A stretch of 64,000 nt of DNA. Origin: Parcubacteria group bacterium GW2011_GWA2_43_13 (GTDB lineage Bacteria; Patescibacteriota; Patescibacteriia; UBA9629; GWA2-43-13). Below the pieces are notes generated by a model. That model searched no databases. It saw nothing but the letters and a program-made list of their open reading frames with translations, and was not told the DNA's origin. A program made the translations under genes and the position numbers. Shown one piece after another: positions 58,325-60,925 of the stretch (position 1 is its first letter; each line of letters opens with the position of its first letter). The stretch spans positions 1,925 to 65,924 of the forward strand of contig LCFM01000004.1 of assembly GCA_000999025.1 (NCBI GenBank), written 5' to 3'.

Positions 58325-60925
58325 TTACTGCACCACCATATTGATTACTTTCCCCGGAACATAAATTTTTTTCACAACATCTTTGCCAGATATCCATTTT
58401 TGAATTTTGATATCCTGCAACGCTTTGATGATAGCTTCTTCTTCTGTTATATCTGTCGGTATTGCAATCTGCCCGCGAACCTTGCCATTAATTTGCACCG
58501 CGATGGTGATGGTTTCGTCTTTGATGAGTGCCTCATCGTACTCCGGCCATGGTTGGGTATCTAAATATCCTTCTTGATGAAGAACTTCCGACCAAATTTC
58601 CTGCGCGATGTGCGGGGCGAATGGAAAAAGGAGTTTAAGAAAAACCTCACCCCTACCCTCTCCTTGGAAAGGAGAGGGGGACGACGACCTCACCTCTCCG
58701 CCATCCGCCAGCTGGCGAAACGAACTCTCCTTGGAAAGGAGAGAGGGAACGCACGCCTCCCACTCATGCAAACAAATCATCAATGCGCTAATAGCGGTAT
58801 TAAACCGCATGTTTTCTATATCTTCGGTAACTTTTTTGATGGTTTTATGGAGGACACGCTCCCACCGCCCCCTAACCCCCTCCTCGGGCAGGAGGGGGAA
58901 CGCGACAGCTCCTTCTCCTAAAGTAGGAGAAGGATGGGATGAGGTCTGAAGATACAATTGGTATACTCTATCCAAAAATCTTCTCATCCCCACAATCCCG
59001 CGCGAAGCCCAGGGAAGCGCGTCTTCAAACGGCCCCATAAACATTTCGTACATCCGCACACTATCCGCGCCATATTCTTTTACCAGGTCATCAGGATTTA
59101 TCACATTACCAAGCGATTTTGACATTTTTCTACCATCTTCTGCGAGCACCAACCCTACATTACGTAATTTTATAAACGGCTCATCCCCAACTTCTTTGGG
59201 GATCATGCCATGATCAAACAACGCTTTGTGCGCAAATCGCGCGTACATCAAATGTAAAACCGCGTGCTCTGCTCCGCCGACATAGGTATCAACCGGCATC
59301 CATTGTTTGATTGCCTCTTGCGATGCAAATTCTTTTTCATTCTGCGGATCGCAAAACCGCAAATAATACCAAGCAGAACACATAAAGGTGTCCATAGTAT
59401 CTACTTCTCGCTTTGCAGTACCGCCACATTGCGGACACACGACGTTTTTTTGAAAATCTTTTGATTGCGCAAGTGGCGATTCGCCATGCGGTTTAAAATC
59501 AACATCAGTCGGGAGCATCACCGGCAACTGATCTTCTGGCACTGGTTGCTGGCCACACGTTTGACAGTAAACGATGGGGATTGGCGCGCCCCAGTAGCGT
59601 TGTCGTGATATTAGCCAATCTCGCAGGCGATATTGCGTTACCCGCTTACCACCAACTTTTTCTGTTATTTTCCACTTCGCCTCCTCGCTATTCATACCGT
59701 CGAATTCGGCGGAGTTGATCATGATTCCATCGCCCGTATACACCGTCGCTGTAGAGACGCTCCGTTGGAGCGTCTCACTGTCCGAGACGTCCCCACGGGA
59801 TGTCTCTACAACCGAACGCACAGGCAATCCATATTTCTCCGCAAACTCAAAATCCCGCTCGTCATGCGCAGGCACCGCCATAATCGCACCGGTGCCGTAT
59901 GACCCGATGACATAATCTGCCACCCAAATCGGAATTTCTTTGCCTGTCGCCGGATTGATGGCTTTCGCGCCCTTCAACTCAACCCCTGTTTTTTCTTTTT
60001 GCAGTTGCGTACGCTCAAGTTCTGTTTTCTTTTGCGCGTTTTCTACATACAGCCGAATTTCGTTGGCGTTCTGTAGAGACGGGGTTAACCCCGTCTCTAC
60101 AATGAGACGAACAAACTCATGCTCTGGCGCCAGCACCAAATATGTTGCCCCATATAACGTATCTGGTCTGGTTGTAAAGACGTCAATGTGATAATTGACA
60201 ACTGACAACTGACATTTGATAGCAAAACCGATCATCGCTCCCTCGCTTTTCCCTATCCAATTCTTCTGCATCACCCTAATCGGTTCTGGCCAATCAATTC
60301 TATCCAGCCCTTCAATCAACCGATCCGCATATTCGGTAATGTTCAAAAACCACTGTTCAAGCTCTCGCTGAACAACCTTATTGTTGCACCGCTCGCACGC
60401 GCCATCTATCACCTGTTCATGAGCAAGTACGGTCTGGCATGACGCGCACCAATTCACTGGCGCTTTCTTTTTATACGCAAGCCCGTGTTTATATAAAAAT
60501 AAAAACATCCACTGTGTCCAATGGTAATAATCTGGCGATGATGTATTCACCTCGCGGGACCAGTCATAACTCAACCCCAATGATTGTATTTGCCTACGAA
60601 ATATTTCAATGTTTGCATTCGTAGAAACCGCAGGTGGCACCCCTTGTTTAATGGCGTAATTCTCCGCAGGCAATCCAAACGCATCCCATCCCATTGGATG
60701 CAAAACACTGCGACCTTTCATGCGCAAGTATCGGGTATAAATATCCGTTGCTGTATATCCTTTAGGATGCCCAACGTGCAGACCGGCGCCAGAAGGGTAC
60801 GGAAACATGTCAAGGACATAACTATGAACACGTGCCAAATGACTATGAACATTTGACACGTTCCAAACGTTATCCTTCAGCCAACGCTCCTGCCACTTTT
60901 TTTCTATAAGTTGATGATTATACAT
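58325..60925 (-). CDS. leuS: leucyl-tRNA synthetase
   Basis: 866 aa from MYNHQLIEKKWQERW; HVGH-like and KMSKS motifs (KMSKSLGN); contains four in-frame palindromic element insertions. Confidence 0.9.
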   Translation of the reverse strand: MYNHQLIEKKWQERWLKDNVWNVSNVHSHLARVHSYVLDMFPYPSGAGLHVGHPKGYTATDIYTRYLRMKGRSVLHPMGWDAFGLPAENYAIKQGVPPAVSTNANIEIFRRQIQSLGLSYDWSREVNTSSPDYYHWTQWMFLFLYKHGLAYKKKAPVNWCASCQTVLAHEQVIDGACERCNNKVVQRELEQWFLNITEYADRLIEGLDRIDWPEPIRVMQKNWIGKSEGAMIGFAIKCQLSVVNYHIDVFTTRPDTLYGATYLVLAPEHEFVRLIVETGLTPSLQNANEIRLYVENAQKKTELERTQLQKEKTGVELKGAKAINPATGKEIPIWVADYVIGSYGTGAIMAVPAHDERDFEFAEKYGLPVRSVVETSRGDVSDSETLQRSVSTATVYTGDGIMINSAEFDGMNSEEAKWKITEKVGGKRVTQYRLRDWLISRQRYWGAPIPIVYCQTCGQQPVPEDQLPVMLPTDVDFKPHGESPLAQSKDFQKNVVCPQCGGTAKREVDTMDTFMCSAWYYLRFCDPQNEKEFASQEAIKQWMPVDTYVGGAEHAVLHLMYARFAHKALFDHGMIPKEVGDEPFIKLRNVGLVLAEDGRKMSKSLGNVINPDDLVKEYGADSVRMYEMFMGPFEDALPWASRGIVGMRRFLDRVYQLYLQTSSHPSPTLGEGAVAFPLLPEEGVRGRWERVLHKTIKKVTEDIENMRFNTAISALMICLHEWEACVPSLLSKESSFRQLADGGEVRSSSPSPFQGEGRGEVFLKLLFPFAPHIAQEIWSEVLHQEGYLDTQPWPEYDEALIKDETITIAVQINGKVRGQIAIPTDITEEEAIIKALQDIKIQKWISGKDVVKKIYVPGKVINMVVQ
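58645..58762. repeat. palindromic element family B, two tandem units in frame inside leuS
   Basis: cctcacccctaccctctccttggaaaggagagggggacgacg..ccgccagctggcg..ctctccttggaaaggagagagggaacgc. Confidence 0.65.
58858..58945. repeat. palindromic element family B (compound), in frame inside leuS
   Basis: ccccctaaccccctcctcgggcaggagggggaacgcgacagctccttctcctaaagtaggagaaggatggg. Confidence 0.6.
59751..59810. repeat. palindromic element family A, in frame inside leuS
   Basis: gtagagacgctccgttggagcgtctcactgtccgagacgtccccacgggatgtctctac encodes VETSRGDVSDSETLQRSVST. Confidence 0.65.
60073..60100. repeat. palindromic element family A, in frame inside leuS
   Basis: gtagagacggggttaaccccgtctctac encodes VETGLTPSL; identical core to the intergenic copy at 37413. 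Confidence 0.65.

What the first reader, a model, noticed from the sequence alone, without database searches (positions are those of the whole stretch)
58325..60925. leuS is a hotspot: four independent palindromic insertions from two families in one essential gene
Two tandem family-B units (58645-58762), one compound family-B unit (58858-58945) and two family-A units (59751, 60073) all lie within the 866-codon LeuRS ORF, which still has intact HxGH-like and KMSKS regions. This suggests high tolerance of LeuRS surface loops, or active spread of the elements.
Basis: seen in the sequence. Interest (0 to 1): 0.55.

Follow-up and report, generated by a model that had tools for sequence, protein, structure and literature searches.

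The report
Mobile hairpin repeats inside leucyl-tRNA synthetase
The essential leucyl-tRNA synthetase gene of a tiny groundwater bacterium (Parcubacteria) carries short selfish hairpin repeats at four places, all in the reading frame and all in floppy surface loops. This kind of insertion is known from Rickettsia and from REP elements in other bacteria; I found no report of it in this bacterial group.

Summary
leuS (58325-60925, minus strand, 866 codons) is intact, with HVGH and KMSKS present. It holds five perfect hairpins with stems of at least 9 bp, against 0.11 expected from codon shuffles. They belong to two dispersed repeat families that also sit between genes in the window.

- **Family A:** GTAGAGACG, a 10-nt variable palindrome, then CGTCTCTAC. 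One single unit lies at 60072-60101 and one inverted doublet at 59750-59810.
- **Family B:** ACCTCACCCC..CCCTCTCCTT..AAGGAGAGGG..ACG, at 58643-58757 and 58864-58946.
- **Extra insert:** a heptamer repeat at 60196-60214.

The inserts are missing from 56 more distant LeuRS homologues. The AlphaFold2 segments with pLDDT below 50 cover three of the four palindromic sites plus one N-terminal stretch. The sites lie in the CP1 editing domain and the anticodon-binding domain, away from the catalytic motifs. In other CPR (candidate phyla radiation) lineages two of these loops hold whole inserted domains, including a RAYT-like transposase. Relatives about 79% identical in DNA carry different elements at the same sites.

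Best explanation: REP-like selfish hairpins that survive only in permissive loops. In other phyla the family A motif sits next to RAYT-like genes (REP-associated tyrosine transposases), but no transposase was found here. Intragenic REPs and Rickettsia palindromic elements are already published, so this is a new member of a known kind.

The parts
58325..60925 (-). leuS coding sequence: 866 codons plus stop, intact
60767..60778 (-). HVGH, the class I HIGH signature (aa 50-53), not interrupted
   Evidence: invariant columns
59114..59128 (-). KMSKS signature (aa 600-604), not interrupted
60196..60214 (.). Site 0: heptamer tandem repeat TGACAAC x2.7, encoding part of CQLSVVN (aa 238-244) in the CP1 editing domain. 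The relative L002 has a family B unit at this position, and other CPR LeuRS have whole domains there.
60072..60101 (.). Site 1: family A single unit TGTAGAGACGGGGTTAACCCCGTCTCTACA, encoding IVETGLTPSLQ (aa 275-285) in the CP1 domain. It is identical to the intergenic copy at 37413-37442.
59750..59810 (.). Site 2: family A inverted doublet (REPIN-like, GTAG ends outward), encoding VVETSRGDVSDSETLQRSVST (aa 372-392) in the CP1 domain. pLDDT is below 50 at aa 386-392.
58864..58946 (+). Site 3: compound family B block with hairpins at 58876-58898 and 58910-58934, encoding aa 660-688 (..SSHPSPTLGEGAVAFPLLPEEGVRGRW). It lies in a loop between helices of the anticodon-binding domain. pLDDT is below 50 at aa 665-679.
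58687..58757 (+). Site 4a: family B long-form unit (ACCTCACC..CGCCAGCTGGCG..CTCTCCTTGGAAAGGAGAG..ACG), encoding aa 723-747. The same long form is intergenic at 31814-31867.
58643..58686 (+). Site 4b: canonical family B short unit and the best nhmmer match in the window (E = 1.2e-11), encoding SSSPSPFQGEGRGEV (aa 747-761). pLDDT is below 50 at aa 745-755.
57943..58024 (+). Pair of diverged family B-like hairpins in frame in the adjacent tsaC (Sua5/YciO/YrdC) gene, encoding ..PPLSRKWEGAFPLLRIREGEGG..
37413..37481 (.). Intergenic family A unit identical to site 1, plus a half unit whose CTAC/GTAG end supplies the TAG stop of ORF 37478..41056
18749..18811 (.). Intergenic family A inverted doublet
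25576..25603 (.). Intergenic family A unit, 23 nt downstream of a stop codon
41143..41199 (.). Intergenic family A doublet, 13 nt downstream of the stop of the 3202-aa ORF
50843..50884 (+). Intergenic family B unit. Other intergenic B copies are at 31138-31177, 31814-31867 and 33865-33896, each shortly downstream of a stop codon.
2108..2149 (+). Family B unit in frame in atpG (..SSPSPNIGEGGVR..)
20737..20776 (+). Family B unit in frame in a recG-like helicase gene, which is on the + strand (..HTSPQPSPCKGEGGIS..). The element keeps the same chromosomal orientation as every other strong B copy. The recG label is my reading of the sequence; no Pfam scan was run on it.

Best explanation
The four blocks are copies of two families of short, dispersed, hairpin-forming repeats of the REP kind. 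Family A is GTAG-type and family B resembles the CGTC type. They became fixed inside leuS because they landed in frame in loops that tolerate extra residues.

**Shown here.**
- The same units occur between genes in the window, mostly just downstream of stop codons.
- Inside leuS they are read through as 10-35-residue extensions. These are missing from more distant LeuRS, and three of the four are predicted to be disordered.
- Two sites are in the CP1 editing domain and two are in the helical anticodon-binding domain. No catalytic or editing signature is interrupted.
- Site contents differ among relatives about 79% identical in DNA, so the elements have turned over since those lineages split.

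**Inferred.**
- The units move as single-stranded DNA hairpins.
- Family A is moved in trans by a RAYT-type Y1 (HUH) tyrosine transposase. The same 28-29-nt motif flanks, or sits inside, RAYT-like genes in Bacteroidota and Cyanobacteria.
- Family B has no known mobiliser, as reported for CGTC-type REPs.
- The hotspot has two causes. Selection keeps only in-frame, stop-free insertions in permissive loops. Elements also tend to insert into or next to existing elements.
- The inserts are probably neutral passengers rather than functional parts of the enzyme.
For: **Real dispersed repeats.**
- Repeat statistics are well above chance.
- Site 1 is a 30/30 match to the intergenic copy at 37413-37442.
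- nhmmer finds 9 family B and 6 family A loci in the window.
- The exact 28-mer occurs in 24 metagenome stretches. Seven of these lie in frame in long ORFs, using both open frames (VETGLTPSLQ and RRDGVNPVST).

**True insertions.**
- Low-occupancy runs against 56 homologues match the element coordinates.
- The codon alignment with L001 and L002 shows presence/absence and content changes at every site, always in multiples of three.

**Tolerated loops.**
- The AlphaFold2 segments below pLDDT 50 are the inserts at sites 2, 3 and 4 plus N-terminal residues 28-30.
- Domain mapping places the sites in the editing and anticodon-binding domains.
- Whole-domain insertions occupy two of these loops (sites 0 and 2) in other CPR LeuRS.

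**The structure, not the peptide, is what is conserved.**
- Among 56 distinct inner 10-mers, 90% of positions are Watson-Crick paired, against 35% in shuffles (maximum 46%). The 9-bp outer stem was fixed by the search pattern. 123 of 130 copies are 28-29 nt long, although lengths of 22-42 nt were allowed.
- The orthologous doublets in the window and in L001 differ by compensatory stem changes.

**Link to RAYT.**
- Seven of 120 loci fetched only by the A motif carry a Y1 ORF that touches the hairpin. L025 has a copy on each side of the gene.
- The best NCBIfam match of these ORFs is the REP-associated tyrosine transposase model.
- A Falkowbacteria leuS carries a RAYT-like domain with HUH and Y-x3-N-P intact, preceded by a REP-like hairpin, in the site-0 loop.

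**Turnover.**
- Site 3 is shared by the window and L001 (88% nt identity, against 79% for the rest of the gene) but not by L002 (47%).
- Site 4 is shared with L002 (81-92%) but not with L001 (38-63%).
- In L002 a family B unit sits between CGTCTC and TAC of a family A unit.

**REP-like placement.** Intergenic copies lie 13-50 nt after stop codons, and one GTAG supplies a TAG stop. Published REP behaviour is the same (PMC3733652).
Against: - No Y1/RAYT ORF was found in the window (64 kb), in the relatives' contigs (35 kb) or in 177 kb of metagenome loci with the identical 28-mer. Mobilisation in this organism is therefore unproven.
- The RAYT-like ORFs in other phyla score below NCBIfam's curated cutoff (57-69 bits against 80).
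- In family A the GTAG is base-paired with CTAC. In the published GTAG REP super-family it is an unpaired tail (PMC3733652).
- Family B shows a CGTC head in only some units.
- The five assemblies compared (of 14 contigs carrying this LeuRS) show no insertion polymorphism, so nothing shows current activity.
- Translation of the inserts is inferred from preserved frames, not observed.
- The hotspot statistic is post hoc.
- Distances from tRNA and active sites were not measured in 3D.
Confidence: 0.7

Rival explanations
1. The copies spread without a transposase. Hairpin units are copied into new sites, or swapped between sites, by gene conversion, illegitimate recombination or template switching at stalled forks. 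The shared sites reflect recombination between existing copies rather than new insertions.
For: No Y1 or other transposase was found in about 276 kb from this clade. CGTC-type REPs are reported to lack a dedicated transposase (PMC3733652). Third-codon-position identity inside shared elements (85-100%) exceeds that of the rest of the gene (57%), as concerted evolution would give. Different families replace each other at the same codon position.
Against: Identical 28-mers sit in unrelated flanks in many contigs. The strict 28-29-nt geometry, with an outer stem shared across phyla, points to a protein reader. The same motif is tightly associated with RAYT-like genes elsewhere.
Confidence: 0.15
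2. The inserts are adaptive. Either the strong mRNA hairpins tune leuS translation, co-translational folding or mRNA stability, or the extra loops give this LeuRS a lineage-specific interaction surface.
For: The hairpins are very stable (-25 to -51 kcal/mol). They lie in the editing and anticodon-binding domains. The elements are retained in frame in three lineages. Elements are more conserved than flanking third positions where they are shared.
Against: The same units are intergenic or sit in unrelated genes. Contents at one site differ completely between close relatives: family A, family B or a heptamer. P0004 and all homologues at 61% identity or less lack sites 3 and 4. Three of the four inserts are predicted to be disordered.
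Confidence: 0.1
3. The feature is an artefact or a dead gene: a repeat-induced mis-assembly of a metagenome bin, or a leuS pseudogene that is accumulating junk.
For: The genome comes from a metagenome bin, and repeats are classic mis-assembly sites.
Against: The five independently assembled contigs compared (of 14 carrying this protein), from different samples and pipelines, are 99.9-100% identical with no indels. The ORF has no frameshift or stop. All catalytic and editing signatures are intact. The gene-wide match to solved LeuRS has E = 2.8e-236. Relatives keep the frame through different inserts.
Confidence: 0.03

Closest known systems
Intragenic REPs of the GTAG- and CGTC-tagged super-families (Di Nocera, De Gregorio & Rocco 2013, PMC3733652)
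   Same: They are 20-40-bp stem-loops, dispersed, and mostly just downstream of ORFs. They occur as singles, inverted dimers and clusters. A GTAG end can supply a TAG stop. A minority lie inside ORFs and encode 7-30 (up to 82) residues. Some genes are hit twice, and tRNA synthetase genes are among the hosts. All of this matches the window.
   Different: CPR/Patescibacteria was not among the phyla surveyed in that paper. In family A the GTAG is paired with CTAC inside a fully symmetric 28-nt hairpin, instead of being an unpaired tag. Four sites carrying two families (plus a heptamer repeat) in one gene exceeds the double hits reported. No REPtron was found in this organism.
Rickettsia palindromic elements (RPE; Ogata et al. 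2000, Claverie & Ogata 2003, as summarised in PMC10969869 and PMC3733652)
   Same: Selfish palindromic repeats inserted in frame in many unrelated housekeeping genes of a small, reduced genome. The host proteins stay functional, and the inserts are predicted to be compatible with the protein fold.
   Different: RPEs as summarised there are about 150 bp and restricted to rickettsiae, with their own conserved peptides. The units here are 28-70 nt. No sequence comparison with RPEs was run. The lineage is different.
REPIN/RAYT systems (Nunvar et al. 2010; Bertels & Rainey 2011, PMC3116915)
   Same: Inverted REP doublets form a larger hairpin (59750-59810, 18749-18811, 41143-41199). In other phyla the family A motif flanks a single-copy Y1 HUH transposase-like gene, as in a REPtron.
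   Different: No RAYT was detected in the DNA available for this clade. The association is shown only in Bacteroidota and Cyanobacteria, and those ORFs score below the curated RAYT cutoff.
Small dispersed repeats and heptamer tandem repeats of Nostoc (Elhai et al. 2008, Genome Res 18:1484). Recalled from memory; cited in PMC3116915; the paper is not held, so this is a lead and not a test.
   Same: Very small (20-30 nt) hairpin repeats that nest in one another and in heptameric tandem repeats, and that appear in otherwise conserved sequence. Here heptamer repeats and hairpin units replace each other at the same positions (leuS site 0, ksgA). The family A motif is abundant in Nostocales.
   Different: Whether family A equals any named SDR family could not be checked.
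Lineage-specific insertion modules of LeuRS (the CP1 editing domain and leucine-specific domain are themselves insertions). Established knowledge of class Ia synthetases.
   Same: Extra sequence is accommodated in CP1 and in peripheral loops without loss of the Rossmann-fold core. Other CPR LeuRS carry NUDIX, hydrolase or Y1 domains in two of the loops used here.
   Different: Here the added sequence is repeat DNA with no fold of its own, not a domain.

Membership tests
REP / GTAG-tagged palindromic repeats (family A) | Short (20-40 bp) stem-loop sequence | tested here: met
   A 28-30-nt perfect palindrome with a 13-15-bp stem; -25.1 kcal/mol, z = -6.8
REP / GTAG-tagged palindromic repeats (family A) | Many dispersed copies, mainly extragenic and downstream of ORFs | tested here: met
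   6 loci (9 units) in 64 kb, 4 of them intergenic and 13-25 nt after stops. GTAGAGAC occurs 11 times against 0.59 expected. Only 64 kb of the genome was seen.
REP / GTAG-tagged palindromic repeats (family A) | Unpaired GTAG tetranucleotide at one end | tested here: inconclusive
   GTAG is present at the 5' end of every unit, but it pairs with a 3' CTAC, so the unit is symmetric and the tag is not unpaired (definition in PMC3733652).
REP / GTAG-tagged palindromic repeats (family A) | Stem residues vary by complementary changes (sub-families) | tested here: met
   56 distinct inner 10-mers, 90% Watson-Crick paired against 35% in shuffles. The window's own copies have six different inner stems.
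REPIN / REPtron (RAYT-mobilised REP) | Inverted doublets with GTAG ends outward | tested here: met
   59750-59810 (arms 78% complementary), 18749-18811 and 41143-41199
REPIN / REPtron (RAYT-mobilised REP) | A cognate RAYT gene flanked by the same REPs in the same genome | tested here: inconclusive
   No Y1 ORF in the window, L001-L003 or 24 metagenome loci, but the genome is incomplete here. In other phyla 7 of 120 motif-selected loci have a RAYT-like ORF at the hairpin.
CGTC-tagged REPs (family B) | Stem-loop with a CGTC tetranucleotide at one end | tested here: inconclusive
   On the + strand the units end ..GGGGGACGAC..GGGGAACGCA or ..GGGGGGCGT, which read CGTC, CGTT or ACGC on the other strand. 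Only 2 of the 5 core units have an exact CGTC.
CGTC-tagged REPs (family B) | No associated transposase gene | tested here: met
   None found next to any B copy. This is weak negative evidence.
Rickettsia palindromic elements | In-frame insertion in housekeeping ORFs that stay intact, at positions compatible with the fold | tested here: met
Rickettsia palindromic elements | About 150-bp element of one of the rickettsial RPE sequence families | tested here: not met
   The units are 28-70 nt and the organism is a Parcubacteria-group bacterium. No sequence comparison with RPEs was run.
MITE | Terminal inverted repeats bounding a 70-300-bp body, with target-site duplications | tested here: not met
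   The whole unit is the hairpin. The flanks of 24 identical copies show no direct duplication, only a T-rich 5' side by my inspection.
Known structured RNA families (Rfam) | Match at the gathering threshold | tested here: not met
   Only two tRNAs were found in the whole window.

The most novel reading that the evidence does not exclude
Permissive loops of the CPR LeuRS editing domain act as safe havens for hairpin transposons and even for their enzyme. In a Falkowbacteria leuS, a RAYT-like Y1 domain with intact HUH and Tyr motifs, preceded by its own REP-like hairpin, is translated as part of the synthetase at the loop that carries repeats here. If that domain is active, an essential gene provides both expression and protection from loss for a REP/RAYT system. 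REP insertion would then be a regular route by which these reduced genomes add loops and domains to core enzymes.
Probability: 0.15. Interest if true: 0.8.

Novelty: new member of a known kind. Interest (0 to 1): 0.45.

Why it matters
- **Selfish DNA in reduced genomes.** Small candidate-phyla-radiation genomes still carry active-looking selfish hairpin DNA, and this DNA is written into the proteins of core genes: leuS, tsaC, atpG and recG here, and genes I read as topA, murC-like, miaA and dinB in relatives.
- **Practical effect on alignments.** LeuRS and similar genes are used as phylogenetic markers and for homology modelling. Repeat-derived stretches such as VETxxxxSLQ or SPSPxxGEGxGEV are not homologous between lineages even at the same alignment columns, so they should be masked.
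- **A natural map of permissive positions.** Recurrent use of the same loops by hairpins, heptamer repeats and whole domains shows where LeuRS tolerates insertion.
- **A testable hypothesis about REP mobility.** A 28-nt hairpin whose outer stem recurs across phyla and sits next to RAYT-like genes could be tested as a substrate for such an enzyme.

Tried and rejected
- **Rfam scan of the window.** Only two tRNAs, so the hairpins are not a curated RNA family.
- **Search for a mobilising enzyme.** jackhmmer with the Y1 domain against all six-frame ORFs of the window, L001-L003 and the 24 metagenome loci found nothing. Hits came only from Bacteroidota and Cyanobacteria loci.
- **Homologue search with the Falkowbacteria Y1 segment alone.** It returned nothing, not even its parent protein, so it says nothing about RAYTs in CPR.
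- **Paired viral hairpins.** Hairpins 1857 nt apart in viral contigs looked like the ends of an insertion sequence. The interval holds what reads as a phage capsid gene next to a prohead-protease-like gene (my reading of the ORFs, no family scan), so the idea was rejected.
- **Insertion polymorphism.** The five assemblies compared are identical to the window, with no indels.
- **DNA of the 69%-identical relative P0004.** It could not be fetched, so its sites are known only at the protein level.
- **Crude census of intragenic family A copies in other phyla and viruses** (25 of 130 and 39 of 151). It is inflated by spurious stop-to-stop ORFs and is not used as evidence.
- **Elhai 2008 (small dispersed repeats).** The paper is not held.
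- **Literature searches for the phenomenon in CPR, Parcubacteria or Patescibacteria.** Nothing relevant was found.
- **Intrinsic terminator reading of the intergenic copies.** No T-run follows the hairpins in the transcript sense, by inspection. The promoter/terminator scanner was not run.

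
Full report
**1. What is in the sequence**

The region holds one long minus-strand ORF. The mechanical ORF call is 58325..60955 with a TTG start. Homologues start at MYNHQ, the ATG at 60925, which gives 866 codons and a single terminal stop.

The protein is a bacterial-type leucyl-tRNA synthetase:
- T. thermophilus LeuRS (1h3n) matches with E = 2.8e-236.
- Pfam finds the LeuRS editing domain at aa 221-423, the class I catalytic halves and the anticodon-binding domain.
- HVGH (aa 50-53), KMSKS (600-604), the editing-site TTRPDT (251-256) and AHDERD (353-358) are all intact.

The identical protein is recorded for Parcubacteria group bacterium GW2011_GWA2_43_13. DNA 99.9-100% identical, without indels, was assembled independently from several ENA, NCBI and JGI samples. 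Mis-assembly is therefore not the explanation.

**2. The palindromes are real repeats**

leuS contains five perfect hairpins with stems of at least 9 bp. Codon-shuffled versions of the gene give 0.11 on average and at most 2. These five are 5 of the 17 such hairpins in the whole 64 kb.

*Family A* is (T)GTAGAGACG, a variable palindromic core, then CGTCTCTAC(A).
- The octamer GTAGAGAC occurs 11 times against 0.59 expected.
- The window has six loci. Four are intergenic (18749-18811, 25576-25603, 37413-37481, 41143-41199) and two are in leuS (59750-59810, an inverted doublet; 60072-60101, a single unit).
- The leuS single unit is identical over 30 nt to the intergenic copy at 37413-37442.

*Family B* has the consensus AATACCTCACCCCnACCCTCTCCTTnnnAAGGAGAGGGGGACG. 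nhmmer finds it in these places:
- atpG (2108-2149)
- a recG-like gene (20737-20776)
- four intergenic sites, each shortly after a stop codon (31138-31177, 31814-31867, 33865-33896, 50843-50884)
- tsaC (57943-58024)
- leuS, twice (58643-58757 and 58864-58946)

The leuS tandem block is a short-form unit followed by a long-form unit. The long form includes the palindrome CGCCAGCTGGCG, as does the intergenic copy at 31814-31867.

A fifth, smaller insert in leuS is a heptamer tandem repeat, TGACAAC x2.7, at 60196-60214.

**3. They are insertions, in frame, in loops**

I aligned this LeuRS with 56 homologues of about 57-61% identity. The runs of this protein that have no counterpart are, apart from two 3-residue runs (N-terminal SHL and EVG at 578-580):
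- CQLS (site 0)
- ETGLT (site 1)
- TLQR (site 2)
- PSPTLGEGAVAF (site 3)
- ACVPSLLS and FRQLADGGEVRSSSPSPF (site 4)

These map onto the repeat coordinates.

An AlphaFold2 model built on that alignment has mean pLDDT 87.3. The segments below 50 are 28-30, 386-392, 665-679 and 745-755, that is sites 2, 3 and 4 plus the N-terminal stretch. Site 1 sits at the end of a helix with pLDDT about 80.

Sites 0-2 lie in the CP1 editing domain, between but not within its conserved motifs. Sites 3 and 4 lie in inter-helix loops of the anticodon-binding domain. Distances to tRNA and the active sites were not measured.

**4. The same loops are used again and again**

Three relatives were found:
- P0002 (contig L001): about 77-80% amino-acid identity
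- P0003 (contigs L002 and L003): about 77-80%
- P0004: 69-74%, protein only, because its DNA could not be fetched

Gene order around leuS is conserved. A codon alignment and the protein alignment give the following site contents.

| Site | Window | L001 | L002 | P0004 |
|---|---|---|---|---|
| 0 | heptamer repeat | nothing | family B unit | no insert |
| 1 | A single unit | unrelated sequence of similar length | A unit with a B unit inserted between its CGTCTC and TAC | short TSLQN |
| 2 | A doublet | A doublet with compensatory stem changes | B units | single A peptide VETGLTPSLQ |
| 3 | B block | B block, 88% nt identical to the window, plus 14 extra codons | diverged (47%) | absent |
| 4 | two B units | one unit | two B units, 81-92% identical | absent |

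The rest of the gene is about 79% identical in all three pairwise comparisons, and 57% at third codon positions. The pattern is therefore a mosaic that needs several gains, losses or replacements after these lineages split. The family A sites appear older than the family B sites.

The same behaviour is seen in ksgA. The relative L002 has a family A unit exactly where the window has a CATGTGT heptamer repeat.

In more distant CPR LeuRS two of these loops carry whole domains:
- a Y1 transposase-like domain (P0008) or an alpha/beta-hydrolase (P0014) at site 0
- NUDIX (P0005, P0014) at site 2

A serine hydrolase domain (P0009) is inserted at a different position, after aa 458.

**5. Is leuS a hotspot?**

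Within the window there are 7 robust, or 9 lenient, intragenic sites. Four are in leuS, which is about 4.5% of the coding DNA. The 9.6-kb, 3.7-kb and 3.6-kb giant genes have none. Binomial P is about 1e-4 to 4e-4 by my arithmetic. The test is post hoc, because the region was chosen for this enrichment.

In L002 most element hits in 14.7 kb are in leuS. In all three genomes the neighbouring tsaC is also hit.

The phenomenon is not specific to leuS. Contigs carrying the identical family A 28-mer show family A and/or B units in frame in genes I read by eye (no Pfam scan run on them) as a Mur-ligase gene, miaA, dinB, topA and a subtilase gene.

**6. What the elements are**

I scanned one genome per species for GTAGAGACG-N(4-24)-CGTCTCTAC.
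- Chance alone would give a few hundred matches spread evenly over the allowed gap lengths. Instead 123 of 130 copies are 28-29 nt long.
- The four inner stem positions are Watson-Crick paired in 90% of 56 distinct variants, against 35% in shuffles.

This is one hairpin family with a constant outer stem (fixed by the search pattern) and a covarying inner stem. It also occurs in more than 120 IMG/VR contigs, for example between ORFs that read as capsid and protease genes of a phage.

Seven of the 120 motif-selected loci contain a Y1 (HUH) transposase-like ORF that touches the hairpin.
- In L025 the gene has a copy on each side.
- In L023, L085 and L116 the hairpin lies in frame inside the ORF, between the HUH and Tyr motifs.
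- The best NCBIfam model for these ORFs is 'REP-associated tyrosine transposase', although the scores are below its cutoff.

Taken together, the evidence places family A with the GTAG-type REP/REPIN elements. That evidence is the downstream-of-stop placement, the inverted doublets, and a GTAG end that supplies the stop codon of ORF 37478..41056. The one difference is that here the GTAG is paired rather than unpaired (PMC3733652).

Family B resembles the CGTC-tagged REPs, for which no transposase is known. All eight strong B copies in the window have the same chromosomal orientation, including the one in recG, the only plus-strand host gene. GC skew is uniformly negative across the window. This fits a replication-strand bias, as expected for single-strand transposition, but n is small.

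No Y1 ORF was found in about 276 kb from this clade. Mobilisation in this organism therefore remains an inference.

**7. Comparison with what is known**

In-frame palindromic repeats are well documented.
- Rickettsia palindromic elements interrupt dozens of housekeeping genes.
- Di Nocera et al. list intragenic GTAG and CGTC REPs that encode 7-82 residues. Some genes are hit twice, and tRNA synthetase genes are among the hosts.

What is added here:
- the phylum: searches of the held literature found no report for CPR
- the density: four palindromic sites from two families, plus a heptamer, in one essential gene
- replacement of one repeat type by another at the same codon position
- the coincidence of two of these sites with whole-domain insertion sites

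I therefore file it as a new member of a known kind.

**8. Verdict**

- The most interesting by-product lies outside the window. It is a RAYT-like domain, with catalytic motifs intact and its own REP-like hairpin beside it, embedded in frame in the site-0 loop of a Falkowbacteria LeuRS.

Noticed in passing
L124 4001-6925 (protein P0008, Ca. Falkowbacteria LeuRS); hairpins at about L124 4751-4780 and 5331-5359: A RAYT-like Y1 transposase domain sits in frame in the CP1 editing domain, at the loop equivalent to window site 0. Pfam PF01797 gives E = 5.8e-16 over aa 273-387, and the HUH and Y-x3-N-P motifs are retained. The perfect hairpin GTTAGGTTGGGTTTTAAAACCCAACCTAAC lies directly 5' of it. A sister copy lies at the equivalent of site 1. 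The unit looks like a REPtron translated as part of an essential enzyme.
   Followed up: partly
Proteins P0005, P0009, P0014 and many others: Many CPR LeuRS are 940-1220 aa long because whole NUDIX, alpha/beta-hydrolase or serine-hydrolase domains are inserted in the enzyme. NUDIX sits at window site 2 and a hydrolase at site 0. Another hydrolase sits after window aa 458.
   Followed up: partly
L004-L123 (genome contigs); L149 onward (viral contigs): The 28-29-nt hairpin GTAGAGACG-N10/11-CGTCTCTAC occurs across many phyla and in more than 120 viral contigs. Its outer stem is constant and its inner stem covaries. In L023, L085 and L116 it lies in frame inside the RAYT-like ORF itself.
   Followed up: partly
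window 37474-37481: The CTAC/GTAG end of a family A half-unit provides the TAG stop codon of the 1192-aa ORF 37478..41056.
   Followed up: yes
window 56005-56047 (ksgA, 55496-56359) compared with L002 11034-11061: The window's ksgA has a CATGTGT heptamer repeat (encoding LHMTNDTLHMTHAN) exactly where the relative's ksgA has a family A unit. The relative also has an extra PPLPEADPPLAEAG insert with a CCGCC..GGCGG palindrome.
   Followed up: yes
window 2108-2149, 20737-20776, 57943-58024, 6708-6736: More in-frame repeat units: family B in atpG, in a recG-like gene and in tsaC, and a family A variant (GTAGAAACG..CGTTTCTAC) in the ATP synthase a-subunit gene. A weak family A remnant lies at 55367-55394.
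   Followed up: partly
L126/L148, L127, L136, L137/L146, L141: Metagenome contigs with the identical family A 28-mer carry family A and/or B units in frame in genes I read by eye (no Pfam scan) as a Mur ligase, MiaA, DinB, topoisomerase I and a subtilase. Both open frames of the unit are used (VETGLTPSLQ and RRDGVNPVST).
   Followed up: partly
window 60985-61020: A perfect 18-nt direct repeat, GTATTCGTAGATTCGGAT x2, lies in the 100-nt spacer just upstream of the leuS start. ATTCGTA-like motifs recur at 5899-5942 and 36716-36741. It may be a regulatory or promoter element.
   Followed up: no
window 287-324: A 38-nt perfect palindrome, TCAGTTTTCACGTATCAAATGTGATACGTGAAAACTGA (17-bp stem), lies just downstream of the first gene. 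It is flanked by TGAAAAC/TGACA heptamer-like repeats and is unrelated to families A and B.
   Followed up: no
window 41212-50820, 50917-54585, 37478-41056, 26988-33848: Three giant ORFs (3202, 1222 and 1192 aa) have no Pfam match, or only a TIG match. Next to them is a type IV secretion-like cluster (TraG-like ATPase, T4SS pilin). None of these genes carries a repeat unit.
   Followed up: no
window, all strong family B copies: All eight strong family B copies are on the + strand whatever the gene orientation, and GC skew is negative across the whole window. This hints at a bias relative to the replication strand.
   Followed up: partly
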